From positions 3,238,515-3,302,514 of the forward strand of contig CAJINV010000002.1 of NCBI GenBank assembly GCA_905178155.1: a stretch of 64,000 nt of DNA, written 5' to 3'. Within the stretch, counting starts at the first letter, position 1. Every line of letters starts with the position of its first letter. Positions 30,854 through 62,700 of this stretch are shown piece by piece. The position numbers and the translations under genes are program-made. The notes under the pieces are model-generated. The model had not been told where the DNA came from. It worked only from the letters and a program-made list of their open reading frames with translations, and did not search any database. Source of the stretch: Amoebophrya sp. A120. Its lineage: Eukaryota > Protista > Dinoflagellata.

Positions 30854-33800
30854 ATGTCCGCCATGTCTACTACTAGTCGGAAAACTCGGTCCCTTCTCAC
30901 CGCCACAAGCGCGAGTGCTTTCACGGTTCGGACGGCGACGTGGTTTCTCGCAACTTCATCTTCATCTTCTCTGAGTAGCAGCTTCAACGGTAGTACTGGG
31001 AGTGCTGCATCAAGAACCGGACAGCACGACATGATATCTTTTGCGGCAGCAGCTGCCGCAGCCGCTGCTGCTGCTTCTTCAACAAGCGGTGCTGCAGCTA
31101 GCGCTGGCAGTCGAGCCCCGATCTACACTTCGACCGGCTCTTCGTCCGCGTCTAGCATCGGCGGGGGAGGTGCTGTACAACCTGGGCGGAAAAAATGGCG
31201 AAAGAGAGGCGGTCGGGGCAATGGGAACAGCGACCGGGGAAGGTCCGCTTCAGTAACTGGGTCAGACGCTGGAGGCGCGGGTGGAGGTCAAACCGCTGGT
31301 GTTCTTGCTGCATCCTCTGCATCACCAGTTTCCCATGCCGACGGGGATGATGGCTGGGGCAGCAAGAATTATCATGCTGCTCCCTACAACTACGCGGACA
31401 CGACACCTGCGAGGCCCCCACACGAGATGAAACAACAACGAAATAAACCACCCAAACGGGGGACCGACTTCTGGGGGTGGTGGGCGCCAACCGAGCAACA
31501 GGCAGCGACGGCGCAAGGCAGTAGTAAACAACAGCAAATGTTGCGCAATACTGCTGGTCTGACCTGGACTCCTAGCCTGCAGTCAACGAGGAATCATACG
31601 CACAACTCTTCCGAACAAGTTTCAAAAAAGCAACCAGACGGCAGTTCGGGATCGGGTCACAAAGGCATTGAAGTCGCACTAGAACATCAACAAGCAGGTC
31701 GTGGTACTACTTCTGTTTCACAGACGTCGCCAAAGACAAGTGCAACAACTGATCTATTCGAGTCACCCAGCGCCGGCACGCTAGCTCCGCAGAACAGCTG
31801 GCGAAGCGAGCAGTCGCTGTCGGCCTCGAGCTTGCCAACCGGCTCGTTTTTAGAGGCGGCAAGCGCGGCACCCACGTTTGAGCACTTCCCGGCAGCTGGT
31901 GTACCGTACCCAAACCTCCATTGCGACGTGCGGTGGTCGCGCCAAGTTTCTGTTGCGAGTCAGCAAGAAAGCCTGCCGGACTCGGTGACCGATGGAGGTA
32001 CTACAGCAGCCGCAGGCGCTATGGGAATGTCAGGATCGAAATCGACAAAATCGAAAAATTTGTGATGCATAAACTCGATGCCAGTTGGAGCCCAGTTTTC
32101 AAGTGGTGCATGACAGATTTTGGCGGTACCTAAATCCAGTTTGTCGTGCTGTTTAGTCAAAGAAGACTGCTCCTGTCGTGCTACTCTGGCAGCGCATTGC
32201 ATACCCCTAGCCAGGCTTACAATCGGTCTCATTTGCCTGCTCCCCAATACAGGTCTCCAGTGCCCTACATTTTATGCATCACAAATTTTTCGATTTTGTC
32301 GATTTCGATCCTGACACTCCCATAGGCGCGGCGAGAACCTCATCTGCCGGTGCCGCACCGCAAGCCCAACAAGCCCTCCAACATCCGCTGCCTTACCACT
32401 GCCAACCGACCGAAAGTGGCACGACAAATCTCGGATCTTCTCTCCGGCAGTACCCCATCTACACACATCTGTCGATGGAGCAGCGGCTTGGAACTCAAGC
32501 TGCGCGTACTTCTACTGGAGCCGGAGCAGTAGGAGATGAACAAGTACCTGTCACTCCATCAAGAAGCGGCCCGGTCGGTGTAGTTTCTTCTATCTCACCA
32601 GGCACACCGACAAATTCTTTCCTTCTCCCCGGCGGCTCAAAACCCGGGACACCGAGTGGGAAACCGCCGCCTCCCCCGATTTTGCCACCCGAGTGTCTAC
32701 CTCGGCTAAATAATCCGGGGGGCGTGGTTATCAAATGCAAAAATGTCTGGGTCTGGAAGGATGCAAGGTTTGTCATGCACATTTTGCATGACTCCTGATG
32801 TCTGCGATGCATGCCCTAGCATCACAGATCTTGTGAGGGCTTTCTGATGCCTATACTGCATGAGAAATGCCCTCTCGCCGTGGCCAAAACCAGACCTCTT
32901 TTGCTGTTCATGCAATACAGATTTTTGGATAATGCAGACGCAGCATCACAAGTTGCATTCTTCCAGACCCAGACATTTTTACATTTGATAGTGGTGCACA
33001 ACACTGGTGCAGCGCCCACGACTCCGGCGTACGTAGATGGAAGTAGCGGTGCTGGTGGGGGTGTTCTTCCTTCTGCAGAGGCCAGCGCAAGAACTACACA
33101 CGACGAACTACAGCAGGAACAACAACCTGTGCCGATTGTGGTTACCACGCCTCCAACTTCGAATGCAGGAGCAGGAGGTAGTAGTTCAAGTTCTTCGCAA
33201 CAGCAGCAGCAGGGACAGGTTTTCACAACAAAATCAGGTCACCGAATCCGAGTCGGCGCTCCTGCACCAGCTGCACACAGTCTACCACAGGCTACAAGTT
33301 CCAGTGGCACTTCTGCGGGAAATAAGGATCAGGATCCTGGTGCTGACGCTGAGGTGCGTACACAGCGCCAGGCACTAGACCAGTGGTGGTTGCAGCAACG
33401 GCGAGCCGGATTATATTCCCAGCAACCTAGGCTCGTGGCAAATCTGGATCTGTCTAGCATGCTAATGTCCACAAAGCCCCCCGAAGAGTTGCAACAGAAT
33501 GGACCGTCGACCACCAGTACAACTAGCGAACAAACCGCGGGACGAGCTCATCTTTCGCAGCAAACAGGAGCTTCCACGCATGACGACACGCAGAATTATG
33601 CGCATTCTCAAATTGCGCATCATTCCTACGATTGGACACGAGAGGACGTGCCCCGTCGTGTTGAAGATCTCAGCAAAGCGTTACGAAACACCAGAAGAGA
33701 TGTCGCCGCTGCTTCCTCGAATGCGGCGTATGCAAACGCGACTGGAACTGCTCAAGAAGGTGGCCACAGTAGCTACTACAAGAACCAGCAACAGGGTGTA

Positions 33801-42800: not shown

Positions 42801-45800
42801 GAGCGGAGGAAGGTGTTTCTGACAAGGCTTTCTACGCCAACGCGCCTGCCGCGGACCTGCATGCGCCACAAGAATCAGAGACGGATGCTGTCATGCAAGA
42901 TGCGCAACAAGAACATACAGATCAGACCTTCATCGAAGAACCGCATGAGAAACAATTTCAACAGGCCCCGTCTCGCAAATCCGTCAACGACGAAAACCGT
43001 GACGTCGACACCAAATACTGGTTTTTCGAGCAGGAGTATGCAAGAAAAAAACTGTGTAACTGTAAATCTGTGATGCAGAACACGCAACAGAGTTACACCT
43101 GTCATGCCAGACAGCCGTGCAGTCCTCTTTTCATGTGTGTGTTTTTCTTACAAACCACGCATGACAGGTTTTCTCTGTCATGTAGAGCAAATTTGTGATG
43201 CTGTCAGCCAAAGGTAGTTACACTAACACAGTTTTTTTCTTGGATAAAGAACGCCCGGAGTACGTCCGACAGAACCATTTACAAGCAACCGCCGAAGACG
43301 TCGCGCTGTGGCAGGGACTGACGGAGATCATTCCAAACGACATATTTTTCGCCTCAGATTGGACCACGATATTCGCGCTCTTCCTCTCTGATGTCCACCC
43401 GGATGACGCGCTTGAGTACGAAGAGGGGAAGACGAATGCGGATGTCGCCATGGTGACGCATGAGTTGAACAAAATGCGGAGATTAGAAACTCTTTTACCG
43501 GAATTCGAGCACTGGCCGTCGGATTTGCGGAAGAAATTTTTGAAGAACAAAATGCTGGTCGACGTTGGTGACGAGGAGGATGATGATGTGATGACACTGG
43601 AGACGACAGCCAGTGACTTCTGCCACACAAGGACAAGTGAAGTTGCTGTTACTGCCCCTGCTGGTGAAGAGAAGGAAAAGGTCCTGTCTAACATCAGAAA
43701 AGACGTCGAAGACGCGAACAAGGGGAAATCATTCGGGAAAGTCATGAAAGAATTGTGGATATCCACAGAAAAAAACCCATGTCGCACATCCAATTTGTCA
43801 TGCAAAACACGTATTAAGAAGTACTGTGTTTGTCATGCAAAAAATGGATGTGGGTGGGTTTTCTTCTGTGGATAGTGGAAAAAGGAAGGCGAAAAACTCT
43901 GCGAGCAGGTTTTCGAAAAGAATGGGAAGACGAAGCCGAAGGAGCTGAAGTCAGTTGCGCACTACGCATTGCAGAAGCATCTCCGCCGGGCCCGGGGGCT
44001 TGTTTGAGTTGCATTGCATTTGCAAATTTCTTCAGATTATTAAAAAAGAGAATTTCTCATGCTGTTTTAGCTTCTGGATGTGATCTGTCATGCATGTTGG
44101 CTATGCAATTCCTACACTTGCGATGCTTTTGCATAGGATACGCAGGCGGCAATGGAGGACTTCATCGATCTGTGGGATTGCACGGAACAGGTTTGTGGTT
44201 TTGAGAAGAACAAAAGAAGCGATGGTAAGCTTCGGTGGAAGAAACAATCTGGAAGTTCATCAGGCACAGCAGCTGTTGCAGGAGCTTCTTCTTCTCAGGA
44301 CGACACTGGAAATAGACCCACTACAGATCTTCATTACAACTCTGAAAAGAACCTGGAACCCAAACCCCGCGCGTTCCTGGAACCGGATAGAGATACCGAC
44401 TTTAGCGACAGCGAATTACAGGAAAAACTAAGAATAGCCAGTGAGTTCGCGCGGGAAAACACGCTGGAGATTGACAAAGCGTTACTTCTAAAAGCCATGT
44501 CGAAAACCGAGGGCCCGAACATTTTCGAACTGGCGGACAATTTCGCGAAAAACCCTGACAAAGCGAGACCAGTAGAAAAACAAGTCAATGTCCACGGGAG
44601 GTTGCAATCCAGAAAGAGGGAATTCGGTTCCTTCCTCCTCACGGAACTGTTACTCGCAGGGATTGTCGGAGCCAAGCAAGCGAATTCCAAACCCAGCGCT
44701 GCGACCAACGGAGGTGGTGCAGGTGCACCACTGAAGCAGGCTAAAACGAGTGAATCGCAGAAACCACCCCTGCAAAGGCAATCCCCGTCTTTGCAACAGC
44801 AGTTGGAAATGGAACTAGTTCGACGGACGTCTGTCGAAACGCAAGCGCAGGCGGCCTGGATCACGGCGAGGTCAAAGCCGACGACGGGGGCAATGGCGAG
44901 CAAGATTCAGATGGAAACTTTATGGAAGTTCTTCTTCCAGGAGGATGGAGATCATGGGAGAAGTCAGAATTCTGAGACGATTGAAGCAAATGACGAATTG
45001 TTGGAAGCGTTGCGGGGCAGGATGTTCCAGACAGATGAAACAGCTGGCAAGACGAATACAGAGTCGCACTACGAAAAGGAACTAGATTTCGATGTCAACG
45101 TGTTCCTCCGTTCCTGCCCTCTCCTGTTCTACGGTGCGGCTAGTACGGTAAAAATTGCGAAAAGTTCCATCACTTCCGAGCGCACGACCAAGAATAGCTC
45201 CCCTGCGAACCGCGGGTCGTGTGGGTCTGCTGGAAATTTTTCCTCGCGGCCGCCATCCCGTGGGGGTATTTTGCTGTTCGCAACCGTGGCGAGAGTTATG
45301 ACCCTGTACATGGGCGGGCTGGTACCAAGGACATCAGCGACCGATAGTACGTCGACGAAACCCCCATCAACCGCCCCGCTTTATCAGAAATCTTCGACCA
45401 CAGAAACTTTCGCTCCTTCCCCCTTCGGATACTTCCGGAAATCCCTGTCAGCTTCAACGCAACTGGAGAAATTGATCGGCCCATATGACCCGCTAAAATG
45501 GTACAATCTCAAACGTTACAATAGAATCTGGATTGTGTATTGCATGATAATCATGACAGACCCGCACAGCGTTCCACTTTCTGCAATACAAATTTCGCCA
45601 GATTTTAGTGCGGTTTGGGACTCCGGAACTTGTCATGCGCAATCCTATGAGAGTTGGCTAGGTCATGCACTTCTTGCATCACAGATTTCCAGATTGTATT
45701 GTATCGCTTGAGATTGTAACACCCGAGAAGGTTTTATAGCCCAGACGCGGGTCTGTCCGAAATGATCCGGTCGGCGCAGCGAATGGTGAACGGGACTGCG

Positions 45801-48800
45801 GGTTATGCAATACAAATTTCCCGTACATGTACAAGATGCATGACAAAGCTCACCAATTTGGAGCGTAAAACTTGTCATGCTAAACTAGGATCGAAGCCAA
45901 GTTTTGTATTGCAGAGACCGCATTTGTGCGTGTCCGGGAAATTTACTGTGAATACGGGTCCGGATAACATCAAAGGACCACTGCCAGCTTCTCATTCTTC
46001 TAGCGGGATGACCCAGCTCTCCAACCCTTTCGTCAATGAGAAATTGACAAAGCAGTTTGCGATTATGACAAAGGAGCTGAAGATCAACGAAGTTCTATTC
46101 CAAGTAAAAACATCCCCACCCCAGAGTTGTCTTGCAAATTTGCATGCCAAAAAAGGTTCTCATGCGAAGCCCCATGAGAAGCTTTTTCTATTCGTGTTTT
46201 GGGATTTATTGTGATGCTAGAAATTGCATCATATGCTAGATCTGTGATGCTGCTGAACTACCACCTAAACAGGATTACACTTGGAGGACAAATTTGTCAT
46301 GCCAGACGACAAAAGCTGGCTGATTTGTCTAGCAGATTTCCCATCTTGTTCACTCTGGTGTGGGGACGTTTTTACAAATGATACGTTCTCGACGAGAAGC
46401 AGAAGATCAGGAACGGGAGAGTGGCGGCTTTAGATTTGAACGTGATGGACGAAATCGTGGAGCCGCTCATAATACCCTGTGGAAAAGTAACGTACTCGTA
46501 CTATTAATCGCATGGATGCATTACAAATTTCTTTCTCAACTTGAATCCGCATCACAAATTCCGTTTCTCATGCTGAGGACGAGATTTGTCATGCGATTCA
46601 TACTAGTACGATGCTTTTGCATTTCATACATAAAGGAAGTATCAGAACGACGCCAAGCCATGGGTCTGTTCCCCGGGATCTCCAGGTCCCCGTCGCCTCT
46701 GCAAGAGATGCCGCACGTTCTAGGGTTTATGAAGGAGAATCAAAGAGCAAAACAGATGGCAAGAGAAGCGATGTTGGCGAAGGCAGCAAGCGCTGCTAGT
46801 AGTACAACTGTGGGAGCAGCTCCGACAGGTGCAGCTACTGTGGCTGTCGGTGTCGGCCTTCCTCCAGCGAATATGAGAGGACCGAAGCTCACAAAGTTGT
46901 TTGAACCGCCGCCGAGAGCAGCAGAGCCGGCCAAGAAGAAGGTCACGTCTACAGGAGCTTCTTCTAGCGCTAAGAACAAAGCCAAAGCGTTGCTATGGAA
47001 AAATGCTACAAAAGACCAGGTTGCAGCTATGGACGTTGACGATGACGAAGTTCCCGCTTCTTTCAAAGTTCTCCGAGGCGAGAACCCTCCTTATCGGAAC
47101 GAATTTACCGTGAAGCTTCCGAACAATCAGGAACAACATGTCGAAGTGATCGGGAATAAGGAAATTCCGAAAGATCTAGACGCGCAGATCAAGCAGCAAG
47201 TGCAGCAGGTGTTTCAGGTGCAAGCGGCAGCGGAGGCTAAGCTGAAACTGCAAGAAGGACAGCAAAATAAAAAGCAAGAAACAGATCTCTTTTTCCCTTC
47301 CGTACTTCCCCTCCACGCACCCTCACCGAAGAGACCAGGGCAGCTGGAGGTGCCGGAAGAGATTATTTCCGTGAAAGAGGCAGAGCTTATCGCCAGAGCG
47401 GTGGAAAGTGTGAACCCTGTGGAGGCGCAGAAATACAACTCTCGCGGCGGAGGAGCTTCTGCACTAGGTAGCTCTACTTTATCCTCTCGCCACCACGCGC
47501 CGAAATTCGTCGTCGCTTCAGAAAGCCGGAGGGGGAGTAAGGACTCCAACCTTGCTATCAGAATGAAAAATCCCCCCTCCCCATATCAAAACGAAGTTTC
47601 TGATGCTGGATTTGCGCACACAAGTCAGATTTATCTTGCTGGCGAGGACTGCAGGCCCATATCAAGCCTGAGAAGACAGGTTTTGGCCTAGGCGCTCAGC
47701 ATGACAGACGTCTATGCTGTAGGAGCATGAGCATGACAAACCGCCTGTAGAATGCGGCGGAGCATGTGGAGTTGCTTTCATGCAACACAGAGACGATTTG
47801 TGGTCACAAATCAGCAACGCAAATTTTCGAAAACGTACCTTGTCAATATGGGGAGGGGGGATTTTTACTTTTGATACTTGCTGGGGCCACTTCTTCGCCG
47901 GAGCAACAGACGCTGGTTGCGAGAACAGATATAGAACTGCTGGATATCATCGCGCAGTATCAGCAGAGCCAGACCCGTATGCACTGCAAATATATCTGGG
48001 TCTCCTGGAAGAGTGCAACTTGTCATGCCGCATTTGGATTCTAGACAAATCTGTGTTGCATGAGCAGCAAAAGGAGTCCATTTTTTGCTACGCGGACACG
48101 GCATTTGTTATGCGGAATGGGCATCGTGATGCCTTCAGAAAATCTGTGATGCTAAAAATACATCACAGATGTCATGGCTCATGCAAAACGTGCATGACAA
48201 AGCTCCACTCTTCCAGACCCAGACATATTTGCAATGCATAGTTCGCTCGAGCAGCAAGGACAGCACCTGTGATTTAGCGGGAGATATCGTTTCTGATTCT
48301 GATTCTACTGTATCAAATGCAAATATGTCTGGGTCTGGAAGATTGCGAGACTTGTCATGCTAGGCTGGCATGACTCTGAATTCTGTATTGCGTGGCCGCA
48401 AAGACTTCCTCTTGCCTGTCATGCAAAAACGCAGTTTCTCATGTGGGGTACGCAACTCAGAACCATCGAAAAACTTGTCATGCTTGGCAGCGCATTAGAG
48501 TTCTCTCCGTATTCCCTTCCTTGCATCACAATTTCCCAGACCCAGACAGATTTGCAATCCATACACTGCGGTTGCTGCGCCGTTGACGTTATTGAAGAGG
48601 GTCGGAGGATCAGCGTCGTCGTCTTCTGGAAGTGTTACTGTGAAAGACCTAGCAGTTGCGAAGATGGAGGAGCAACGAGCAGCTGCAGCGGAAGGACAGA
48701 ACACTTGCACAACTCCGTCTTCTGTAGTGCCTCTACCTGCAACACAGAACAACGCAGCAAAGCCAACCACTGCCACTGCACCAAAATTCCCTTCTTCACC

Positions 48801-51800
48801 ATTCCCCAAAAATCCCGCGGCCATGGCCGCCGCCGCAGAAGCATCATTCCCTCCTCCCAGGCCAGCACCGCCCCGCGGCGGCAGCTTTGAACGGACAATC
48901 GAGATTCTGCCGAGGTTGACCTACGGCATCGACGGTGCGTTTGGGGTCAGGGCGAAGCAGGAAGAAGAGTTCAACGATGCCAGGATGGTGTTTTACGATG
49001 CGATGTTCGATTTGGGGAACCAAGGAACCATCAAGCCGTCGCACTTGCCCTTCTCTCCGATAGTGGAAATTCGGCAAAAAAGGATTCCGAGATATGAAAG
49101 ACTTTCGTATAGCAGGCATGCGCATCCGCATGTTGATGCTGAAGACGCCGGCCCGTGGGAGGTAGATGCGGATGCGCTCCCGGAAGGTGCGAGTATGGCA
49201 GAACAAGATGGAGAAGGCGACATGGCGGTAGGAGAGGCACTGACGGAAGATGAGGACATGCAAGAGCAAGAGGAAGATCTTCGGCCTACCCTCCGCGGAC
49301 ACTACGTTGCAGCAGCAGGAGAGGCCCAAGAACAGCGCCATGACCTCGAACAACCTCTACGTCCTCTTCCACGACACAGATATGCGAAAAATCTCCACGG
49401 CGCAGAAGTAGCCACGCAGCAAGATCCCCTCATCGTCGTGCCACCGCAGCCCTTCCCCGCACCCGATGGCACGACAAACAGCCAAGCGTTCCCCGTTGCG
49501 GGCGTCAGGAGATTTCTCACGCGGACGATTGAGAAAAAGCGGGAACAGTTATTGAATCTAGTGAAGAACGCGGTCACGTTGGTTCCGAATGTTTCCGTTA
49601 ATCCTCTGAACATCCGCGAGCAAGCAGCTTCGTACGTCGTCGATCTTTTCCGGTTCCGCGGGGATTTAGACCGGGCGGTTTTGTTAAAAGCCAGTTTGAT
49701 GTCGTTGTTGGATGAAGAAGGACGGAACCTTCATGCTGTAATGCAACAGTTGGCCAGGAAAGTTCTCGCGATAAGCGCAGGCACAAAACAAGTCCAGGCT
49801 TCAACAGCTTCTCCGATCGATTCCTCCGAGTCCCTTCTGTCCACGCAAAGTCAAAAAGACCAGTTGGAAGCCCATGTGAGAGATTTGGTGCATCGCTTGT
49901 TCTTCGCGGAGGACTTAGTATCCCAACCGGGCCAAACGCAGCCACGGCCACCAGCGACCGAGCAGGCGGTTAGCGAAACCTCGATTTTGGAACAGCACAT
50001 CCGTCAGCAGTATTCGGAAGTGGTGAAACTGTACAGCATGCGGAGGCACCGGAGTCGGCAGAGGGTGAAACAGAAGATGGAATTTGAAATGCGGGTACAG
50101 GAAGGAGAGGAACGTCAAACTGGAGCAGACATAACTGCAAAATCTCCTACAGTCTCTCGGCGTGGTGGTGCAGCCACTTCGTCGCGACAGCAGGGTTCAA
50201 TATTTTCGGGCAGTGAAGATGCCTCCCCTGGCGGTACTAGTTCTTCCTCCAGAACCGGATCATCTTGCGCTGGCGGCAGTTCTAGTCCACAACTTTGCAG
50301 CAGCGATAAAGACACCCCATGCTCCTCAGATTTCAAATCTTGTTCGCGGCAAACCAGCGTGCAAAGTAGCTTCACAGGAGCGGGCAGCCCTGCGCTCGGG
50401 CCGAAAAATGCGCCCACGATCGTGTTGCCAGAAGAGGAACAAGCTGAGGAACAAGCCGGTGCGCTTTCTGTTGCAGCAGATACAGGTACAGTAGCATCGC
50501 CAGGACGAGCTTCTGCAGCACCGAGCCGACAACGCTATTTCAATCCCTTCACCGACCAAGAGGTTGGGAAGCCGAAAACCTTGTCCCACGAGCCAACAAG
50601 GGCTTACCCGAGAAAAGTTGTACTTGCCTACGACCCGGATCCAGATGACGTGAGAGAGTTACAAGTGTTTGCGGATAAATACAGACTGCAGTACGAACAG
50701 CAGGCGGAGATTTACGGTGGCGGAGATTATGGGCGGCCCACCGTCACAGCTGAGGAATCAGGCGACGCTGCACCAGCAGGTTCTTCAGACCAGGAGGAGG
50801 CCAAACCCGGCAGCCGGCGCAAGATGAAGAAGCTAGAGCTGTTAGCTTCGAAGTACCACCTGATGCGCGTTTTCGAACTTTCATCCGCTGCACCAGCAGA
50901 AAATAAAGTAGAGTGCTTCACCTGGCAGGCTTGGAAACTGGATGAAGTGGATCATAGTTGGAAGAAAAGTCAAAGTAAATCTTTGATGCAGGATGAAGAT
51001 GCAACATCTTCCGACTCCCCCACTTCCTCGCAGGTGGACAATAATGATCATGCAGAAAAGGTCTACCCAACGCCAAACAGCTCGAAGCCGTCTTCTTTCA
51101 GCATTGCATCTTCCTTTGCCGCTTCTGACGAACGTCATTATCGCGCGACGCACTTGACGGCAAACCAGTTAGAGCAGCTGCACGAGATTCAGTCAAGGAG
51201 GAATAAAACAGAAGATGATATTGCGAGCGATCATGTGGGCGCCGGTTTTTCCTTGCCGGAAGCCGCTATGGATGTGGATGTTGCGACAGAAATTATGCCA
51301 GCTGTTCCCTCTCCGACCGAGTTGGACAACGGTTCTGAGAGGTCTCGTGTAAGAACCGCCACGCCAGATTGGGACAAAATGCAGGTTGAAGTAGATGAGG
51401 AAGTAGCACAATTAGAAAGAAGAGCCCACTCGAAAGAAACCGTCGGCGTTGCGAGTAGCGTCTCTTCCACGACGATGGCCTTCATCAAGGGGATGGATCA
51501 AGGCATGAACGCTGAGATGCAATCTGTGGTTTCTGACTCCGCGGTGTCTTCACCGAAACACTTGAGTAGTAGCGCAGCGGGCTCTTCTGTGGCGAACAGC
51601 AAGCCGCAATCACCGCAGCATAGCTGTTTACGAAACTACAATGTCGAGGAAGCAGGAACTGCGGAGAGTAACAAACGCAAAAACGGACCTTCTCTCGTTG
51701 CAGAACCCGCCGACGAACTTTCCAACCTGGAACGGGAGTTCATCACGCTCGCCCGATTACTCGACCAAGCGACCATGCACTTGCTCCATGTGGAATTGCT

Positions 51801-54800
51801 GGAGCGAAAATTGATTGAAGTTTCGTATCTCGTGAATTACAACGAATTGGAGGGAATCCGGCAGAACAATCATCTCCATTCCTTCTGGCTCTACCCCACG
51901 ATTTGGGTCCAAAACCACTTCAACATCGTTCTAGACCAACTGGAACTCTACCAATCCGTGCAGAAAACGTCGGAACTTTTCTTCGAAGGTATCCTCAGTG
52001 AATTTCCCGTACCCGACTAAAAAATGCGGCTTCAGCATGACAAAACTTGCCTCCGATCCTAGTTAGAGCATTGCAAGTGTTCTTACACTGCAAGTTGGCA
52101 AAATTTGTGATGCCTTTTGTACGTCGTGCCCGGGAAATTTGTATTGCATAGAGGGGAGCGATAGCCTACTAGCAAACCGGATCCCCAAGTCGGAAGTTAT
52201 GGCGCACAACGAGAACCACTTGCTCGCTTTGGAGATTTTTCAGTTCATGATGGGGGCAGATAAAGGGAGTTCTATGCGGGGGGAACACATGATGCACCAG
52301 CAGGAGCAGGAGGAACCCCATGATAATAGAGAAGCTTCTTCAACATCAACAGCGATCACTTCTGTTGGCGAGGTTCACTCCATGTTCCATTTACTCACAA
52401 AAGACCACAGCGCGACACTAGGGAACAAACAGTTGAAAATCACGCACAAATCTTGGTCGAGCTTTGGCACGATGGAGAAGATCTACGGTGGGTTCGTCGA
52501 GTGGATGGCGGCGCAGCATCAACAGCAGAAAGTTGTACTAGCGGACCCAAATCTGCACTCTCAATCGTCAGCAACGAAGGATTTTACCGTTTTCCATCTG
52601 TTTTATCAAGGGATTTCTGAGGGGTGGAGGAGGCGTTTCATGCTCCCGGAAGAAACGGCGAGAGGCATTTGCGGGAAAAAAACGGTAAAAATTGCAGGCG
52701 GCGGAGGATCAGGATCTTCCGTAATATCAGCGACGTCCATTGCATCAGCGACCACTTGCGGCTCCCGTGCGATGACAACCGCATTGATGAATGGGATTTC
52801 GAAAATCGGCAGCACCAAAAGCAGCGCGGCCACGGCGGTGTCGATGTTGGAAGGGAAGACGAAAGGAACATCTTCAAACAAGCCCCCAGGAACTACAAGC
52901 GATAGTAACATCAACTTGAGCACAAATAATCTTGTTCCCCCCCACGAGCTCCATTTCTCCAAAGTGACGAACTTCATCGTGACCGAAATCCAGAAATTCG
53001 TTGAGCCGAAACATGCGGACATTGAGCGGAGATCGAAACTAGAACTCCTGCATTTCCGGAAGCATTTTGATTTCCAACATTTTCTCGCCTACGTCACCGG
53101 GCCGGAGTTTTTGATTGCGAGTTTAGGTCATGAGTTCAAATCGCATATGCCAGCGGAGTATGTTGTAGATGAGGAAGGGGCGTCTGGTCTTCCGGTCGCT
53201 TCTCGGACCTTGGATTTGAACAATTCTGACACTTCTACTTCCACTGGTTTACAGTACGACGTGATCACCGAGGCGATTAAAGCGACATCAGATAAAGACA
53301 TGGACAAAATCGCGGAAGCGCTGGCGTTGGAGTTAGAAAGAGAGCAGGACCGGATAGAAAAGTTGAGCCTGCTGGAAAGAAATCTAGAGCAGATCAAAGG
53401 AGAGATGGACGAGAAGGCAGTAGGAGACGAGGAGGACTCAACAGATGAACTTGGTGCCGGGAATAGCAGATCTTCTCCGACGGAAGTTGCTGACAAAGCA
53501 AGACAAAAGTTTTTAAATCCACCGGCCGCGCTCGATCTCCAAACCGCTTTGACCCAAGCACCCGCGGAGAGTTTGTCTGAGAAAACACAGCAGACGAAGG
53601 CGGGCATTATTCAGAGTTTGCTCCAGCGGAAATACGCGGTTGCGCCACGACCTGGTGTAACACCTGCTGCAGGTGGAGGTCTGGTTTTGCCTCCCATTCC
53701 GAAGTTGTTTGATGAAAGAGCTAGTTCGACGTCCACAGGTTCTGCGTCTATAGCTCGACCTCTGCCCGCGTTGCCGCCGGCTGCTGGAGCTCCTGCGGAG
53801 AATGGTGCTCCTAACGCAGGAGAAGGAGAAGGCCCTTCCGCTGCTGGCAATGTCACCGTCGCCGCACCAGGGCCACGGCTACTGAAGCCGCCCAGTCCGG
53901 AGCTTTTGGCAGAATGGAAAAAGAGGAGAGAAACTGCGGTTGCGTCGAAATTGCCTCCGCCACCGGTAGGATCTTCGAAGAATGGGGGAGGTGATCTTGC
54001 GCCGGAAATCCCCCCTTTGCCGGTCTCGCTACCTGGAGGAGGTGATGAAGAAGATTCTACTTCAAGAACTAGCGTTCTTGCGTTGCCGACAAGCAACACG
54101 ACGCGCTCCTCGAGTGGTGCAACTACTGCTGCAGAGATGGCAGCCTTCGCTTTTGAATGGGAAAAGAAGGCGGCACTGGAGTTCCAACAGGGGCAACGGG
54201 ACGAGAGTGAAGTTGGAGAGGAAGCTGCTGCAGCTTCATCGACGATGAACGTGAACAGCAGTCTTTCAACACCGGACGGGATTTTTCCGCCAGTGAACAG
54301 CAGTCTATTCAACAAAAAAGCATTAGCGTTAGCGTTTTGGCATTTGCTGGCGAAAGCCAAATTTTTTTTCATTCTAGCTAGTGACGTAGCTGTGTTCCGT
54401 TCAGACAGAACCGCGCTAACTGGAAGCAGTGGAAGCAGTCTCTTCGGCCGAGAAGCGGATCGGAGATGATACCGCCAAAGATGTGGGCGACGGCTAGGCC
54501 GTGCACATGTCTGGGGCTTCAGGGACTTCCGGCTACGCGACCTCCTGGCCATGCGGGGGGCTGGCAAGCCGTCGCTCTTGGAGTGCCTGAAGACCCGTTT
54601 TTGGCTTGCGGCCTTTGAGCCCGAGCAAGATGATCAAGCTTCCCAAAGTCTGGCATTAGCGTTTCTGTCCTCGGAGGTCATTTTGACCCCCTGAGCAGAG
54701 GCGAAATTGCATGGTCGCAAAAGAAAACGCTAATAAACTCATGATAGCGTCGGAGGAGCGTCTCTCTTCTCAGGTTCACAAAAAACGCTAATAAACTCAT

Positions 54801-57800
54801 GGTAGCGTCGGGGAGCCTCTCACGAAAGAAAAGACGCACTTTTGTAAGTTCACAACTTCCCCACGCTATCATGAGTTTATTAGCGTTTTTTGAGCCTTGG
54901 CATAAGTTTACATTTTCCGCACGCTATCAAGAGTTTATTAGCGTTTTTTTTTGCGACCGTGCAAAAGTGCAGGACTTCGGCAAGAAGTCTTTGGGTATTT
55001 TGCTGGTCCCCCCGAAGGCGCTAATGGACGCCGGGTCGGAGCTCCAACCTGCGCTCCATCAAGCTGCTGTGGCGGGTGGGGCGCTTGTTTGAATGATATT
55101 GGATAGCAATCTTTCGTCTGAACGGAAAATAGCCGACTCGACATGCAAAATCAAAAAAAAAATCGTTTGTTCGAACAAATCTCAAAATATCCCACGAAAA
55201 TAACCCATCCCCATCGTAATTGCTATTTTTTTTGCAAAAAACGCTAAAAAAAATTGAAAAAAAAACAAAAAAATTGCTACCCATGCGGAAGGGCTTCGTG
55301 GTGTTAGCTAGCACGTGACGACTATGACAGAAGCAGCCTGAGACGATTCATCTAGAAGTGTTTGCTTTGAATTAGCTAGCTCAAGGCATCCCCGGCGAAG
55401 CCGCGACAACAAAGCCACCGAAAGATGGGCGTCAGACAGGGAGACAGCGCCGGCTACGGATACGCTTTAGGGCCGTCAGGGCCGTTGGTTTGCTTGCTTT
55501 TTCCCACATCACCGTCGCCATGTCTGCTTGCCACCACATCGCGACCATAGATGAAAGCCCGTGACCTGTTTTGTCCGTCGTTTTGGCCTCAATAGGTCGG
55601 CGAAAATTACCCATCCGGACAAATTTTTGCGACTTTTGAGCTTTTCGGATTTTTTCCGCAAATATCTGTTCAAAAAACCGGAAAAAATCAGATTTTTCTT
55701 TTTTTTGGCAAATTTCTTCAAAATTCCGAAAATGCAGAAAAATCTATCACGATGGGTTATTTTCGCCGACCTGTATAGGCAAAAAAGCCTACTTTTTTCG
55801 AAAAGTGGTCCGATTTTGATTTATCTGGATGGGTTATTTTCACCCGACCTGAGTCGGGCAAAAAGTTGCTCTTTTTTTGCTTCAAAGCCGGCTTTTTTGG
55901 GAAAAAAAAACTTGGGTTTTCGGGGTATACGGGTCGGCGAAAATAACCCATCCAGATGATTTGCAAAGTTTCGCTATTTTACAAAACCCCAAAAAAGGCG
56001 AGCAAAAAGCGCGCGCCTGCCCCGACCTGAGTCCGTTGATTTGGCGATTTTTTTTCTTTCAAAAAAGTAAACACTCTGAGCGACATTTTAGCCGGACTCA
56101 GGTCGGGGCAGGCGCGAGCTTTTTGCTCGCCTTTTTTGGGTTTTTGAAAAGTCACGAAATTTTGCAAATCATCTGGATGGGTTATTTTCGCCGACCTGTA
56201 TACCCCGAAAACCCCAGTTTTTTTTTTACAAAAAAGCCGGCTTTGAAGCAAAAAAAGAGCAACTTTTTGCCCGACTCAGGTCGGGCGAAAATAACCCATC
56301 CAGATAAATCAAAATCGGGCCACTTTTCGAAAAAAGTAGGCTTTTTAGCCTATACAGGTCGGCGAAAATAACCCATCGTGATAGATTTTTGGTCGATTTT
56401 TGATTTTGGCGAAAAATTGGAATTTTTTTGAATTTCTTCGCTTGCGTCTGCCCTCAACCATTTTTGCCGGACCTCCATTTCTGGACAAGCCAGGTGACCA
56501 GTTGCGCGACCATTCCGTCGCCGCGGACGCGGCCTAATTAGGGGCCAGGGAGGCGGAGGATAGGGCGGCCGCCCTTCCGGCGCGAAGCGGGCCTGTGCGG
56601 CCCTCCCGGAGGCCGCCGGCGCGCAGGACCTTCCGCGCCGCCACCGACCACGACCAGGAGCGCGGCCGCAGACCACGAGGAAGGGCCGCGCCCTCGGGAC
56701 AGAGACATTGCTGGCGGTTCTTCCCTGAGGATGCCTGGAGCTAGCTACTTTATTCACATCATCACTAGCGATTCCTCTCAAGCCGGCTGTTCTGACTAGT
56801 TATCACGAAGCTAACTGACGCCACGACTTTTTTTTTCGCAAAAAAAAATCAGAAAAGTCGCATTTTTTTTTAATTTTTTTGTTTATTTTAATTTATTTTT
56901 TTGCACCGTAAAAATGGCAATTACGATGGGGATGGGTTATTTTCGTGGGATACAAAACGCTAACGCTAATACTTTTTTGTTGGATACAGTCTTTCAACAC
57001 CGGACGGGATTCCGCCAGTGCCAACAGGTACTGGTGCAGAAACTTCTTCTGCAACGACAACTTCCGGCAGCAGTGCGGCTAAGCCAGCAGCAGGTTCAAA
57101 GAAAGGCACTAAGGAAAATAAAGAGAAGGCTAAGGCTGCCAAGAGCAATGGTGGGAATGGAAATGGGAACAACAACAAAGTCGGTGGAAAGCAGAGTACT
57201 ACTAGTAGGGAAAAGCAACCAGCAGACGGAACATCAACTTTAGCTGCAACCACAGCAGAAAATATTAACCAAGACAGCGGCGCCCCTTCTCTCGGCACCA
57301 GTCCCATTTCCGACATCATTTCCGTTCTTCACAATTTCGCGAAAAACCTCTTTCAAGAGTTCACCGAGCAGGACGATTTGAAATTCCTCCTATGAGAGTG
57401 CACAACCCTCCCTCCCCCTTATTTGTGTAGCATGGACGGCAATTATACAATTGCCAGCAAGAATGCCGGCTGTGCATGACAAATTTGCACACGAGTGTAG
57501 TGCTGTTTGGGCTTCCGGAGTTTGTGGTCATCCAAACAGTGCAAAGAGACGCAGTGCCTGGATTTGGTGTTTTGCATGACAAATGAGGGGGAGGGGGGGT
57601 TGTGCACTGTCATTCCTCCGGAAAGACATCGCGAACTTCTTGCGTAACGGGGTGTTGTGGGTCTGGTGGCGAAGAATTTACCTCGTGTTGGAGCACATTG
57701 GGCTTTCCGAAGTGTTGCAGACCTTCGCGCAGGAATATTTGTGGGAACAGACGACTACCGGTTTGCAGCAAGAAAATAGTACCAAAGGGAACAAGAAAAG

Positions 57801-59743
57801 TGGTGCTAAACCCCCACTGCAATTGCCGCAGTTAATCTCGATGCACTTTATCCCACCAGACCCCAATAGCTCACACGACTGCTCCATGTTTCTAGCGGCG
57901 GACGGAGACAAAGCTTCTTCACCGTCATCGTCCGCTGCCGCATCTACTTCACAAACCGATTTGTCCTCGTCGAACAAACGTCTTTCCAGCAAACCAGGCT
58001 CCAGTCCAGACCTGCGGAAGAAGATACAAGAGAACAACCAGGGCATCCCCGCAACGGCACAACCATCTGCGGATGTTACCGCAACTGCAGAGGCGCTTGG
58101 CATTGCGAATCCGCATATGGTGAAATCTGTAACCGCCTACAGCTATGGCAGAGACCACGAAGCGGATGAGGACCACGATGTTAATAGCCGTAGTGCTAGT
58201 GGCCGTGGCGCAGCCGCGGAAGATGGAAAAACAAACGGCGAACAGCAACAGCAAAACTGGCAACCCTGCACGGGCCCGCATTTGAACGCGAGAAAATATC
58301 GAAATTCCAACGCTCTGAGGCTCAGATTTCTACTCCCCTCTGACCTCCTTTCCGCAGAACAACTAGGGAAAGTGGTTTATTCCACCAAAGCACCAACGCT
58401 GACCCGGGCTGCTGGTGGTGGGGGTGCTGTAGGATCAGCCGCAGGAGCTACTGGTGGAAATAGTGGCAGTACTAAAGGTAACAGTAAAGAGAAGAACAAG
58501 ACGGGTGCTGGGGCAACTACTGCTCCATCTACTGCAGACAGTACCAACACGCTCCTGCCGAAGTCCGCCCAAGTGGTCGACGTTTATCTCAAACACGAAT
58601 TGGTCAACGGGTACGTGCGGAAGGTTCTGAGCGAGCAGTTGCGGTTAGAAGTGAGGACAGTGGTGGAGAGGACACAGCAAGCAGTCGAGTTAGCCGGGGA
58701 CGCGAATTATGAACTGCAAAAACATCGTACTAGTAGTAATTGCAATACAAATTAACTCAGCATGACACATGGAATTTGTCATGCTGTTTTGCCTTGGGAT
58801 AGAGATATGTAATGCATGACTGCGATTACTACGAGCGCGATACTTTTGCACAGGATACAAATGCAGAGCGGGGGGAGAGAGTTCGGTGGACCAGCCCGAC
58901 GGAAAAATATATCACCAGTTTGGCGGATGCGGTATCATTCGTGTTTTGCTGGACAAAGTTTTTGTCATGCATTTTCTTCATTTTCACAGTCTCTGACTTG
59001 TACAAGATCATGAGAGACTACATCTGCAATGCACGTTTGTGTTACATAGCGAAGTTACCCAACTTTTCAACAATTCAGGTCTACTACTCCCTCGAGTTCG
59101 ACGAGGTCATTGACGCGTTTCTGGAGCACCTTCGCGGTGACCCACACCAATCCGCAGACCACTGGATTTCTGTTGCTTCGTCCAACTTCGGGAAGGCGAT
59201 CGACGCCATCTATGGGGAGGAAGAAAATGTACCACCAGGACCAGCGAAGGGACAAGGACAACAAAATGCGGGTAATCATCAACATACAGGCTCATCTTCT
59301 CCCAACCTCAACCCGCACGCGTCGAAGGACCAGTTGCTGAACTTATTGAAGTATGAATTGCAAAAGTACTTTAGCCTTAGCCTTACTACTACTAGTAGAA
59401 AGCGCATGACATCAAATAATCTTCTCAGCGTATTAACACATGGAATTTGTAATGCGGGTCTGCCTTAACAACGGGATTTGTAATGCATACCGACGATCAC
59501 TACGATCACGATACTTTTGCAATGCATATGAAGCAGGAAATCACCAAACACGGGGTCATCCACGGAAACCATGCACAGGCACTGCAGAACATGCGGGGCG
59601 TGAATTCGGGACAGAGCTACGGGGTGCCCCACCACGTTCTCCCCGCGGTAGTGGCCAGTCCGGGGGCGTTTGCGCTCTACCAGTGGAACCTGCACTTCTT
59701 CACGTTATTGACGAGTCACGTTTTCATGTTGGGGGATTTTTGA
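30854..59743 (+). CDS. Giant low-complexity (S/A/G/Q/T-rich) protein of ~6,985 aa, 26 exons, function unknown
   Basis: Removing 25 insertions (7932 nt, including the 2.7-kb nested element) from the 28,890-nt span leaves 6986 codons, and flanking ORF pieces join in frame. The single-gene model depends on the 2.7-kb element being removed. Confidence 0.6.
32020..32324. mobile_element. Introner, family E
   Basis: Long TIR; DR GGCGC. Confidence 0.9.
32729..32990. mobile_element. Introner, family H
   Basis: DR GTGGT. Confidence 0.9.
35171..35324. mobile_element. Introner, family M
   Basis: Homologous to 45804; DR decayed (CGTCG/AGTTT, or AGTCG 6 nt further). Confidence 0.8.
36299..36549. mobile_element. 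Introner, family H
   Basis: DR GAAGC. Confidence 0.9.
38355..38505. mobile_element. Introner, family B
   Basis: DR GACCA. Confidence 0.9.
38612..38865. mobile_element. Introner, family H
   Basis: DR GGAGG. Confidence 0.9.
38947..39188. mobile_element. Introner, family A
   Basis: DR GCGAA/GCCAA. Confidence 0.9.
39429..39702. mobile_element. Introner, family H (reverse of the 16609 type)
   Basis: DR CGGAT/CGGAC. Confidence 0.9.
39750..39938. mobile_element. Introner, family B
   Basis: DR AAGAT/AAGAC. Confidence 0.85.
43037..43246. mobile_element. Introner, family L
   Basis: TIR TATSCAAGAAAAAAACTGTGT; DR AGGAG/AAGAA. Confidence 0.9.
43760..43874. mobile_element. Introner, family I
   Basis: TIR TATCCACAGAARAAAACCCA; DR GTGGA. 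Confidence 0.9.
43963..44140. mobile_element. Introner, family B (diverged)
   Basis: DR CGCAC/CGCAG. Confidence 0.8.
45484..45738. mobile_element. Introner, family D (reverse of 2078)
   Basis: DR GCCCA. Confidence 0.9.
45804..45954. mobile_element. Introner, family M
   Basis: DR CGGGT. Confidence 0.9.
46096..46383. mobile_element. Introner, family F
   Basis: DR AGTTC/CGTTC. Confidence 0.9.
46473..46628. mobile_element. Introner, family B
   Basis: DR CATAA. Confidence 0.85.
47556..47876. mobile_element. Introner, family N
   Basis: TIR TATCA..AAAAATCCCCCTCCCCATAT; DR CTTGC. Confidence 0.9.
47978..48240. mobile_element. Introner, family H
   Basis: Clear TIR; DR decayed ACCCG/GTTCG. Confidence 0.85.
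48311..48563. mobile_element. Introner, family H
   Basis: DR TACTG/CACTG. Confidence 0.9.
51990..52150. mobile_element. Introner, family M (reverse)
   Basis: DR GAAGG/GAGGG. Confidence 0.9.
55188..56952. mobile_element. Nested 1,765-bp foldback element inserted in the right TIR of the outer element
   Basis: TIR TATCCCACGAAAATAACCCATCCCCATCGTAATTGC; DR CAAAA at 55183-55187 and 56953-56957; degenerate arms over 200 bp; no transposase ORF recognised. Confidence 0.9.
55738..56390. repeat. ~298-bp-arm inverted repeat with ~57-nt loop
   Basis: 55738-56035 is a near-perfect reverse complement of 56093-56390. Confidence 0.9.
57391..57614. mobile_element. Introner, family C
   Basis: DR CCTCC; right end mutated to CATT. 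Confidence 0.9.
58708..58857. mobile_element. Introner, family B
   Basis: DR CGAAT/CAAAT. Confidence 0.9.
58932..59078 (+). other. 147-nt GT-AG intron with introner-like features
   Basis: GCG|gtatca...ttcag|GTC; contains TTGTCATGC. It is in-frame and stop-free, so intron status rests on composition. Confidence 0.6.
59352..59528. mobile_element. Introner, family B
   Basis: DR TGAAG. Confidence 0.9.
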
Positions 59744-62700
59744 GGCGGGAGTTCGGTTGTGTGGGGGATCATTTGTGGCGAAGATGGTGCAGTTCTTATT
59801 TAGCGGTGATTTTATTTATGATAAGAAAGCGACAGGAGACGAAGAACAAGATCATGATGTATGAGTAAAAATAGATAGGGTCTTCGATAATTTAGATTTT
59901 TGTTTGAGAATACTGAGCGTATCATGCAGTGATTTTTATATTTTTTTGGTTCGGTGAAGATGTTTATGGTTGAAAACTGTTTAGGAAAAGACGATCAACA
60001 TAGTTCATGAAAATCAACAAGATTCTTGCAAACGAAATATGCCACCTAAAGGTCACAAATTAGTTGCTATTTCAAAAGAAGAAGAACCCTGGCTATTAAC
60101 ATTTTGAGAATATAACACATCGCCGTAAAAGCGATAACCATCTTGTTGTCGATAAGCTTCCTCGCTAATTCTCTTTTTTTTTTTGTTTTCAGAATTTCTG
60201 CCAAAGTAAACAACTATTGTATGTAGTGAGGTCACCGAACGGTTCTAACCAGGGAGTTTTTTTGACAGCCAGACAGCAAAACGGCCGTCAGTTTTCAAGC
60301 GGGCGGAAGCGTTTTTTGACAAAAAAGATTCTCAATTATCAAGCGGGCAGAGCGTTGCTGGCAAACAAGCCCGGTCGAAAACTATCGATTCGCACTTGAT
60401 AAAACGACGCAGGGGAGCCGGCAAAAGGGGCGCCCTTCTGAGGCGCCCACCGCCTTGGTTTCTGCCGATTTGGGGAGCCCAAAAAGGGGCGCGCAAAAAA
60501 CGCGCCCAAAATCAGAACAGCGAAACAGCATGGCACGGCCGCGATTTCCGAGCATTTTGGGCGGCCGCGAAAGCGGCCGCCTTTTCGCCGGTTTTAGAGC
60601 CGGGGAAGCTTTGCAAAAAGCGCCGGCGGGAAAAATAAAAACGCGAAAAATAAAAAGCGCCCCAGACGCGCAAAGCCAATCCGCATGCTATGGGCCCGGT
60701 TTTTCTTCGCTTTTTGGGCGCCCCCCTTGGCACCCGGATCGGCCCCATAGCATCGGGGCTGGCTTTCGGAAAGGAATTTTGGAAATGTTCCAAAATTTGT
60801 GACGTTTCCCAAGTGGCCGCAATACCGTGCGGCATAACGTTACTCACGGCGGTATGGCGAGCCCAGAAATAGCAAAGCCGCGGCCAAGGCGGCGGTCGGC
60901 AAAAAAACGCCCACGACCTCACTACCCCCGCCCCGGCGGCTATATTTCGTATCAGTCGCTACAACCACACGAGTACGAAAGTCGTTGTGCCTTGAAGACT
61001 ATATCCAGCCCCAACTGCAGAAAGTCCATGCGGCCCGGCATTCCGGGTGATGTTGAGGTCGAAAACGTAGAGAAGAAATCTCTCCCATGATTTTTTGACG
61101 AAAGAAAGGACGATGAACGAAGGTGCATCATGCCTGCAAAATCTTAGGGTCATCTCAGCCACAGTGCATCACGCGCTGTGATCTACTACTTCGTTCCTAG
61201 AGCAACTGCTACGACTGACGAAAGGGAAATGATCAGAAAGAACTACAGAACGAACATAGTAAGAAATCGCTTGTGCTTATGCTTTTGTTTCGATTGAGTG
61301 GCTATTTCACGACGGGAGGCTTTTTGCCACAGGTGTTCATCGACTCTGGAACGAAAAGGGGGCAACGGTGTGAGGCTTGAGGGCTGCAGCGCAGACGCGC
61401 GCGCCCATTAAAAATCGACTCTGGAACGAAAAGGCTTGCAACGACGCGCGGGCCTGTGAAGGACTGCAGCGCAGACAAGTGAGCACGTGGCGGCGCCCAC
61501 AATTCCCAGCCCGGCGGGCAGTTGACTGCCTGGAGGGGGGCCGCGTTCTTCCCCCGCCCCAGAGGGAGGGCGCGAGCGTTTTGCGCAGCAAGGGCAGCGC
61601 GGCCGCGGCCGCGATCTGCCGGCCTGCCTCTGTTTGCCGGCGCCGCTGTCTGCGCCCGCGCGCGCGCGCCGGCAAGGGCCAGCGAAGGCGCCAGGCTACA
61701 CGCAAGCGGGCGCCCAGGCGGGCGCGCGGCGGCCTGGGGCAGGCCCTGCGACGCGCCGCACCCCTTCGGGCGCCCGCGGCGCCCCATTGCCCCCGGCCGA
61801 CGCGCTTGGGCGGCATGCGCGCAGGCGGGGACGCGGCAGAATTCAAAAAACGGGGGAGGGCGGGCCGTTGTGGAAAGCGTCCACATTTCTGCCGACTGCG
61901 GCGCGCGAAGTGTTTGGGCCTACATAAATTGCACGAGGCCCTGCGATCCGCCGCGATAGAATGGCCGACCGCGCGCGTCGGGGGGCGCGCCGTCTCATTT
62001 ATTTCGCCCAGGCCGGCGCATGGGCCGCCCGCCCGGGCGTACGAGATTGCCGGCGCCGACCAGCGGGGCGGGGCGCTAGCCGGGTGGGGCCCAGCCATTG
62101 CTTGGGGTGCTTCCGCCGCTGGGCCGGCGGAGCCTTGTCTACCGCGGGTGGCCCGGCAGGGCGTCCCCCGTGCCCGCCTGCCCGTGTTTCTGGCCCAGCG
62201 CCCCCCCCCCCCCCGCGGTGTTTGTGTGTTGATGCTGCGCCCCCGCTGCAGATTATGCGCAGGCGAGTGGTGGCGCCCGCGCCCGCCCGCGGGAGGTTGG
62301 GGGGAGAGGGGGCTGCAATTAACAAATGGGGGCCGGACGCCACGTTTGTCGTTTTGATTGATCCGTCGTGGGCCCGGTCGCTTTTCCTCTGTGTTTTTCT
62401 CAGCCGGCCGAGCAGCGATTCCCACGCACAAGGCCGGGCCACAGTGATACTTACACAGCTAGGCACCGACCTAGCGGTGCCTCGGGCAATTTTTTCTTGG
62501 CGCCCCCTGCCTTGGTGTGTTCCGTGGAATCTGGATGCCCGTGCACAATTGCCCGAGATTTTCATCACATCCAGCAAACAGCTAGTAGGGACAAGGGCTT
62601 TCCATTGCCATGGCTTTTTTTTTGATTGGTTTTGTAGAAGTGCTGAGAAAGCTAATGCTATGCCAACACTGTCCTGTATTAAATGCAAGTACTTTTGGAG

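What the first reader, a model, noticed from the sequence alone, without database searches (positions are those of the whole stretch)
54306..56991. 2.7-kb transposon-in-transposon foldback in a coding exon, with the same end rules as the introners
Seen: the outer element (DR CAGTC) contains a second one (55188-56952, DR CAAAA) inserted in its right TIR. Both have TAT...ATA ends, 5-nt DRs and palindromic bodies with element-specific repeated motifs. Removing 54306-56991 rejoins VNSS|LSTPDGIPPVPTG in frame. Unlike the small introners, they lack the dense GCATGACA motif array. Inference: these are larger DNA transposons of the class that seeds introners, and a natural test of whether the termini alone suffice for splicing and whether nested removal is stepwise. 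A nested insertion with its own DR supports the DR being a true target-site duplication.
Basis: partly seen in the sequence, partly recalled or inferred. Interest (0 to 1): 0.8.

Follow-up and report, generated by a model that had tools for sequence, protein, structure and literature searches.

The report
Nested transposon pair spliced as intron
In a marine parasite whose introns ignore the usual rules, one jumping-DNA element sits inside another within a gene, and RNA contigs show the whole 2.7-kb block cleanly missing from the message, likely cut out by the same fold-guided splicing that removes its short introns.

Summary
Observation confirmed. In Amoebophrya sp. A120, a 911-nt TAT…ATA element (5-nt duplication CAGTC) sits in a coding exon. 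It carries a younger 1765-nt element (duplication CAAAA) 29 nt from its right end. Neither has a recognisable transposase. RNA contigs of one sample (four runs) have no depth inside the block and show exactly the contig pattern predicted for removal of 54306-56991; the public protein model already crosses this junction. So it is a long, nested member of the published A120 introner class; kb-sized TA…TA, 5-bp-TSD introner families are already catalogued. What this locus adds: splicing occurs with no GCATGACA-like motif and no GT-AG register. Its 25-nt exact repeat is not used at the RNA junction, which argues against a reverse-transcriptase artefact; it may be the scar of an aborted excision. 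Not shown: stepwise removal (no intermediate seen), a seeding role, an autonomous partner, or that the RNA culture carries the inner element.

The parts
49258..59740 (+). Host gene, public model P0001 (2306 aa, Amoebophrya sp. A120, GSA120T00013816001 / CAD7932908.1), function unknown
   Evidence: 100% match over 717 aa; tblastn map; no Pfam family at cut-off
52154..54305 (+). Upstream exon
   Evidence: RNA contigs, P0001 residues 910-1628
54251..54292 (+). Copy 1 of a 39/42-nt tandem duplication: an empty copy of the target site, with three extra T
   Evidence: (D15); present in DNA contig, in RNA and in P0001
54293..54305 (+). Start of duplication copy 2, ending in the left TSD CAGTC (54301-54305)
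   Evidence: sequence
54306..56991 (+). 2686-nt segment removed from mRNA (nested element plus one TSD); cut can slide 5 left, 1 right; no GT-AG or GC-AG register
54306..56986 (.). Outer non-autonomous TIR element (911 nt without the insert), repeated motif AAAACGCTAA, several diverged relatives in the genome
   Evidence: extra DNA contigs with substitutions
54306..54339 (.). Left terminal arm; predicted to pair with 56953-56986 even with the insert present
   Evidence: (I9), MFE fold of the nested RNA
54467..54469 (+). In-frame TGA reached if the element is not removed
54707..54964 (.). Internal palindrome of the outer element
55183..55187 (+). Left TSD of inner element (CAAAA)
55188..56952 (.). 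Inner non-autonomous foldback element, 1765 nt, repeated motif CGAAAAT(A/T)ACCCATC; young, about three identical copies by contig depth (rough)
   Evidence: X1 contigs with 0 differences at depth 120-193 against 40-46 for single-copy DNA, one ending exactly at 55188
55709..56419 (.). Central palindrome of inner element (327-nt arms, 57-nt spacer)
   Evidence: (I1)
56953..56986 (.). Right TSD of inner element (56953-57) plus last 29 nt of the outer element: the outer right terminal arm
56987..56991 (+). Right TSD of outer element (CAGTC)
56992..57390 (+). Downstream exon; its first 26 nt complete duplication copy 2
57391..57619 (+). Small introner plus one DR in the same gene, spliced in the same RNA contigs (positive control; likewise 51990-52155 and 58708-58862)
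   Evidence: table 5

Best explanation
This is a pair of TIR DNA elements without a recognisable transposase, one inserted into the other inside a coding exon, and the whole 2686-nt block (both elements plus one 5-nt duplicate) is absent from the RNA contigs, likely removed by the same end- and stem-guided splicing that handles the short Amoebophrya A120 introners. Shown: anatomy, 5-nt TSDs, exact in-frame removal, no GT-AG register, no GCATGACA-like motif. Inferred history: an unidentified transposase acting in trans inserted the outer element, then later the inner one, 29 nt from the outer right end. Inferred splicing: the RNA folds so that the outer 34-nt terminal arms still pair; the cut is set by the stem base and the TAT-N7-AAA ends, not by dinucleotides. 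I put removal in one step with the inner element as passenger at about 60%, because the inner element's right TSD is predicted to be buried in the outer stem; inside-out removal in two steps at about 40%. The adjacent 42-nt duplication is probably a scar of a polymerase skipping the hairpin and slipping back at a GTG microhomology (inferred, about 45%).
For: RNA (four runs, one sample): depth 0 in all ten bins 54451-56860 in 4 of 4 runs; upstream contigs stop at 54280 in 4 of 4; downstream contigs begin 5 letters before 56987 in 4 of 4; a 69-nt contig matching 54254-54306 is listed in 3 of 4 (X3, X4, X5), and the 16 loose letters behind 54306, equal to 56993-57008, are listed in 2 of 4 (X4, X6). 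A k=31 graph simulation gives exactly these four features only for removal of 54306-56991, 1 of 5 models. Junction-contig depth (10.7, 13.6, 8.4) is no lower than upstream depth (10.2, 10.7, 7.0). Three small introns are skipped in the same contigs, so these runs are spliced RNA. In DNA run X1 the contig runs unbroken through 54280 into the element. P0001 reads across the junction. TSD length test; fold; no Pfam match in 16 element ORFs. Ends fit the A120 motif in PMC7789003 section 11.
Against: All RNA support is contigs from one sample; contigs drop rare forms and cannot show intermediates. The RNA sample differs from the DNA sample, and the inner element is young, so the RNA culture could lack it. 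The inner junctions were not seen in listed DNA pieces. The role of the spliceosome and of the stem is not tested here: the mechanism is unknown in print too. Only 4 of 49 small elements have a GT/GC-AG register, and no branch-point motif is enriched near their 3' ends, so nothing here ties removal to the spliceosome directly. No transposase was found.
Confidence: 0.8

Rival explanations
1. True twintron: the inner element must be spliced first, restoring the full outer stem, before the outer intron can be removed.
For: The inner element has better ends (36 perfect nt, 43-bp predicted helix) and its own TSD; its removal lengthens the outer terminal helix and brings it in line with a 39-bp helix behind it.
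Against: No inner-only form in 4 of 4 runs (weak, contigs drop intermediates). A helix that includes the 34-nt terminal arms is still predicted with the insert in place, and it includes the inner right TSD.
Confidence: 0.3
2. Only the 911-nt outer element is being spliced: the inner insertion is recent and absent from the culture that gave the RNA.
For: DNA and RNA come from different samples; inner copies are identical, hence young.
Against: RNA exons show no letter differences from the window, so the strain looks the same; nothing shows polymorphism.
Confidence: 0.1
3. The junction is a reverse-transcriptase template-switch artefact across a hairpin flanked by direct repeats, not splicing.
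For: Direct repeats plus secondary structure favour such artefacts (PMC4176328 passages); the ends are non-canonical.
Against: A 25-nt exact repeat (54259-83 = 56987-57011) is available yet not used; the 5-nt one is. Junction depth equals exon depth, and the reading frame needs the removal. Library chemistry is not on record.
Confidence: 0.05
4. The block is cut out of DNA in some life stage (IES-like elimination), so the RNA comes from an element-free template.
For: TA termini and precise removal are reminiscent of ciliate IESs (recalled, no call).
Against: X1 DNA shows no empty allele: its contig is not broken at 54280 as the RNA contigs are. One DNA sample only was laid.
Confidence: 0.03
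5. The 42-nt duplication is unrelated: an ordinary tandem duplication in a low-complexity protein that the element later hit by chance, or a product of cDNA-templated repair.
For: The protein is low-complexity here; the chance that one such duplication covers any of 50 junctions is about 7%. An empty-site copy is also what a spliced cDNA template would give.
Against: It is the only such duplication inside a mapped gene among 3 found in 49,878 nt of de-intronised window, and it covers the one large-element junction (about 0.15% for a given junction; a post hoc figure).
Confidence: 0.4

Closest known systems
Amoebophrya A120 introner elements (Farhat et al. 2021, PMC7789003)
   Same: Non-canonical intron, inverted ends starting TAT + about 7 nt + at least 3 A, 3-5-nt direct repeat, no transposase, repeated in the genome.
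   Different: 2686 nt, beyond that paper's 40-1000 bp analysis window; nested; long internal palindromes; no GCATGACA-like motif. 'nested' has 0 occurrences in its main text.
Long A120 TIR introner families in Gozashti et al. 2025 (PMC12130899, Dataset S2), e.g. fam38 (808 bp, '5-bp TSD, TA/TA Termini'), fam196 (811 bp), fam26 (730 bp), fam103 (about 1190 bp)
   Same: kb-scale TIR elements counted as introns, same termini and TSD for fam38.
   Different: fam38 has ORFs with Copia/Gypsy homology; these have no Pfam match. No sequences were seen, so family identity is untested. That study filtered out secondary insertions into existing introns.
IS3EU/GingerRoot and IS481EU DDE transposons (PMC10045372)
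   Same: TA..TA termini (IS3EU/GingerRoot), TNT..AYA termini (IS481EU).
   Different: TSD here is 5 nt, against 6 for IS3EU/GingerRoot and about 4, 15 or 25 for IS481EU; no transposase to place it.
Twintrons / fungal stwintrons (abstract starts only)
   Same: An intron-like element lies inside an end element of another.
   Different: Stwintrons are U2 introns with canonical signals and obligatory order; here order is untested and the outer terminal stem is predicted to survive the insertion.
Euglenid nonconventional introns (review PMC11282704 passages)
   Same: Stem-joined ends, TSD-like repeats, non-canonical junctions, lengths up to several thousand nt.
   Different: Other lineage, other terminal motifs.

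Membership tests
Amoebophrya A120 introner element | Removed from mRNA, RNA-supported | tested here: met
   (one RNA sample, contigs)
Amoebophrya A120 introner element | Non-canonical splice sites | tested here: met
   none of 7 registers is GT-AG or GC-AG
Amoebophrya A120 introner element | Inverted repeat joining both ends, starting TAT + 7 nt + at least 3 A | tested here: met
   both elements; definition
Amoebophrya A120 introner element | 3-5-nt direct repeat at the boundaries | tested here: met
   CAGTC, CAAAA
Amoebophrya A120 introner element | Repeated in the genome | tested here: met
   raised contig depth and variant contigs in X1; rough, copies not located
Amoebophrya A120 introner element | Other copies also form introns | not testable with these tools
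   no genome held
Non-autonomous TIR DNA transposon | TIRs, TSD, no transposase | tested here: met
Non-autonomous TIR DNA transposon | Mobilised by a cognate transposase | not testable with these tools
   no partner found; genome not held
IS3EU/GingerRoot | TA..TA termini | tested here: met
IS3EU/GingerRoot | 6-bp TSD | tested here: not met
   5 nt
IS3EU/GingerRoot | IS3-like DDE transposase | not testable with these tools
   no coding sequence in either element
Twintron | Intron-like element inside another intron | tested here: met
Twintron | Inner element is spliced on its own, before the outer | tested here: inconclusive
   no inner-only form in contigs, which cannot show intermediates
Twintron | Inner element disrupts a signal the outer needs | tested here: inconclusive
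   interrupts the TIR, but the terminal stem is still predicted

The most novel reading that the evidence does not exclude
The locus is a transposon-born twintron removed by a structure-reading, U1-independent splicing pathway that needs only paired TAT-N7-AAA ends at any distance, and the flanking duplication is a frozen intermediate of hairpin-driven precise intron loss: birth, nesting and aborted death of an intron at one site.
Probability: 0.2. Interest if true: 0.72.

Novelty: new variant of a known kind. Interest (0 to 1): 0.45.

Why it matters
How Amoebophrya removes tens of thousands of non-canonical introns with no detected U1 snRNA is open (PMC7789003). This locus sets limits: a 2.7-kb nested block with no GT-AG register and none of the small introners' internal motif is removed precisely, at near-full efficiency by contig depth. 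That points to the ends, and suggests such TIR elements of any length can land in exons or in each other at little cost. Its 25-nt repeat is a built-in control against the reverse-transcriptase artefact that shadows all hairpin-plus-repeat introns. It also offers distinct predicted products (1770-nt versus 2686-nt excised RNA) to test splice order. The class itself is published, and the public gene model already contains this intron.

Tried and rejected
No whole genome is held, so no copy search, empty-site search or hunt for an autonomous partner. Raw RNA runs X9-X11 gave no depth on the gene (3, 5 and 7 partial reads): uninformative. Exact TIR patterns found 0 matches in metagenome contigs and 0 in viral contigs. 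Pfam: no family at cut-off for 13 window ORFs, 14 element ORFs or P0001. The homologue search of longer proteins returned only the gene's own model, 1 of 7980 scored candidates. Removal between the long repeats (54264-56991), inner-only removal, full retention, and two separate transcripts each predict a different contig pattern from the one seen. The two CTAAY motifs in the outer right arm look like branch points, but CTRAY lies at -50..-13 in only 1 of 49 small elements (antisense 2 of 49), so it is rejected as a general signal. Similarity between the outer and inner ends is no higher than shuffles in 4 of 4 comparisons. No other convincing nested pair among small elements. Earlier scan notes: nothing. 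Roy et al. 2023 (PMID 36543167) is not held and was not seen. Higher RNA contig depth downstream was not used as evidence.
Full report
Anatomy. The outer element spans 54306-56986 between two CAGTC repeats, with 34-nt terminal arms 94% complementary. The inner element spans 55188-56952 between two CAAAA repeats, 29 nt from the outer right end; its first 36 nt are perfectly inverted and it has a central palindrome of 327-nt arms. Without it the outer element is 911 nt and its ends align at about 75% over about 100 nt. Each element has its own repeated motif in both orientations. Stop-to-stop ORFs inside the block are at most 172 aa; 16 ORFs overlapping it had no Pfam match at E up to 0.1 (14, 2). 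Both elements are therefore non-autonomous as far as these tests reach.

Context. A relaxed scan gave 53 candidates. I kept 49 as small elements (112-352 nt) and set aside the two large elements and two long, weak pairs (10385-12664, 29308-32071). Of 56 TAT…ATA pairs chosen without regard to flanks, 30 have an exact 5-nt repeat; no other length from 3 to 10 gives any. The host exon matches one protein at 100%, annotated as Amoebophrya sp. A120. The ends fit the A120 introner motif of PMC7789003 (section 11). GCATGACA with up to one mismatch is in 49 of 49 small elements and absent from both large ones. The inner end resembles small elements at 9130, 23558 and 43760 (0, 0 and 4 of 5000 shuffles reach the score; these were picked as the best of 98 ends).

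DNA check. In run X1, one contig covers 51000-54335 and another 56957-57418 with no differences at depth about 45, so both outer junctions and the upstream duplication are real. Four contigs over the inner element have no differences at depth 120-193, one ending exactly at 55188. That suggests about three identical copies and a recent insertion. Contigs over the outer element carry substitutions, suggesting an older, diverged family. The tool warns that summed depth is no copy number, so these are rough. The inner junctions were not among the 8 listed pieces.

RNA check. Runs X3-X6 (one sample) skip three small introns of the same gene and show no letter differences in exons, so they are spliced RNA matching this strain. 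They have zero depth in all ten bins from 54451 to 56860. No joint is listed for the large block, and the reason is instructive: after removal of 54306-56991 the mRNA holds a 33-nt repeat twice, which breaks a k=31 graph. Simulation predicts an upstream contig ending at 54280, a 69-nt contig matching 54254-54306 with a 16-nt tail, a downstream contig with 5 extra leading letters, and a 33-nt core at double depth. Observed: the first in 4 of 4 runs, the 69-nt contig listed in 3 of 4 and its tail letters in 2 of 4 (together all four), the third in 4 of 4. The leftover depth in bin 54210-54450 fits the core in the 3 runs computed (21.1, 22.3, 14.2 against 20.9, 24.3, 15.4 expected; an inference, as that contig is not listed). 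The four other models predict none of this. The public protein reads VNSSLSTPDGIFPPVNSSLSTPDGIPPVPTG across the junction, so the deposited gene model already removes the block. Limits: one RNA sample, contigs only, and a different sample from the DNA. Raw runs X9-X11 did not cover the gene.

How it likely works. None of seven possible cut registers is GT-AG or GC-AG, and only 4 of 49 small elements have one. In the three control introns, and a fourth read from a loose end, the removed length is always element plus 5. Where the two repeats differ, the left copy's letter is kept at positions 2-3, so the cuts lie close to the stem base. The nested RNA is predicted to keep the outer terminal helix, with the inner element as a separate hairpin beside it. 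I infer that paired ends, not dinucleotides, set the cut. Whether the U1-less spliceosome described in PMC7789003 does it is untested. The inner right repeat is predicted to be paired inside the outer stem, which mildly favours one-step removal.

The duplication. 54251-54292 is an empty copy of the target site with three extra T; the second copy holds the element. Three duplications of at least 20 nt within 300 nt were found in 49,878 nt of de-intronised window; this one lies in the mapped gene, while the others (26875, 61339) lie in stretches I did not map to genes. A polymerase that skips the hairpin between the two TSDs, copies about 29 nt, then slips back at GTG and copies through the element would leave exactly this (my inference; a search for such a case returned 0 papers). 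cDNA-templated repair or an earlier chance duplication also fit. It also tests the artefact rival: template switching is favoured by direct repeats and structure (PMC4176328 passages), yet the 25-nt exact repeat is ignored and the 5-nt one is used. Hairpin geometry could still favour the short repeat, so this is support, not proof.

Comparison with print. PMC7789003 (seen: abstract, passages, sections 11 and 16, supplement passages) defines the class but analysed introns of 40-1000 bp. PMC12130899 (seen: passages, supplement passages, Dataset S2 parts 1 and 15-17, covering 50 of 58 A120 families) lists TIR introner families of 0.7-1.2 kb, including fam38 with '5-bp TSD, TA/TA Termini'. So long elements with these end rules acting as introns are known. 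Several short families there have alignment spans of 4-16 kb, which may mean members with large inserts (my reading of a table column). PMC10045372 (passages) gives TA..TA termini with 6-bp TSDs for IS3EU/GingerRoot, so that membership fails on TSD length. PMC11282704 and PMC12005148 were seen as passages. Searches found no description of nested Amoebophrya introners or of their splicing mechanism. Roy et al. 2023 could not be read, figures are not held, and the rest of the supplements may bear on this.

Verdict. Real, spliced, and a long nested variant of a published class. It is a useful test substrate for an open splicing question rather than a new kind of system. Interest 0.45.

Noticed in passing
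window 56987-58933 versus 52154-54280: RNA contig depth is 1.6 to 3.3 times higher downstream of the junction in 4 of 4 runs. 3' bias is the likely cause; starts near the element end are not excluded; contigs cannot rank parts of a gene.
   Followed up: no
window 58933-59079: Decayed introner (ends TAT…AAT, repeats TGCGG/TCAGG); RNA contigs leave the window at 58933 and resume at 59081; it has a GT-AG register.
   Followed up: partly
window 51990-52155: A further introner missed by my scans (repeats GAAGG/GAGGG), spliced in 4 of 4 RNA runs; the mismatch shows the left repeat is kept.
   Followed up: yes
window 48564-49257: The frame is open about 230 codons upstream of the annotated start of P0001, so the gene may be longer than the public model.
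   Followed up: no
window 9130-9241, 23558-23682, 43760-43874: Small introners whose ends resemble the inner element's TIR; possibly moved by the same transposase.
   Followed up: partly
window 56960-56975: Two CTAAY motifs and a T-run before a possible AG in the outer right arm look like a canonical 3' intron end; not general among small elements.
   Followed up: yes
window 60240-62700: GC-rich stretch (up to 63%) after the gene's end, with short repeats and no Pfam match; no long TIR found.
   Followed up: partly
window 54385-54754: At five positions all laid DNA contigs differ from the window: private changes of this copy or consensus errors.
   Followed up: no
window 26875-27217: A 42-nt direct repeat at 300-nt spacing; not examined.
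   Followed up: no
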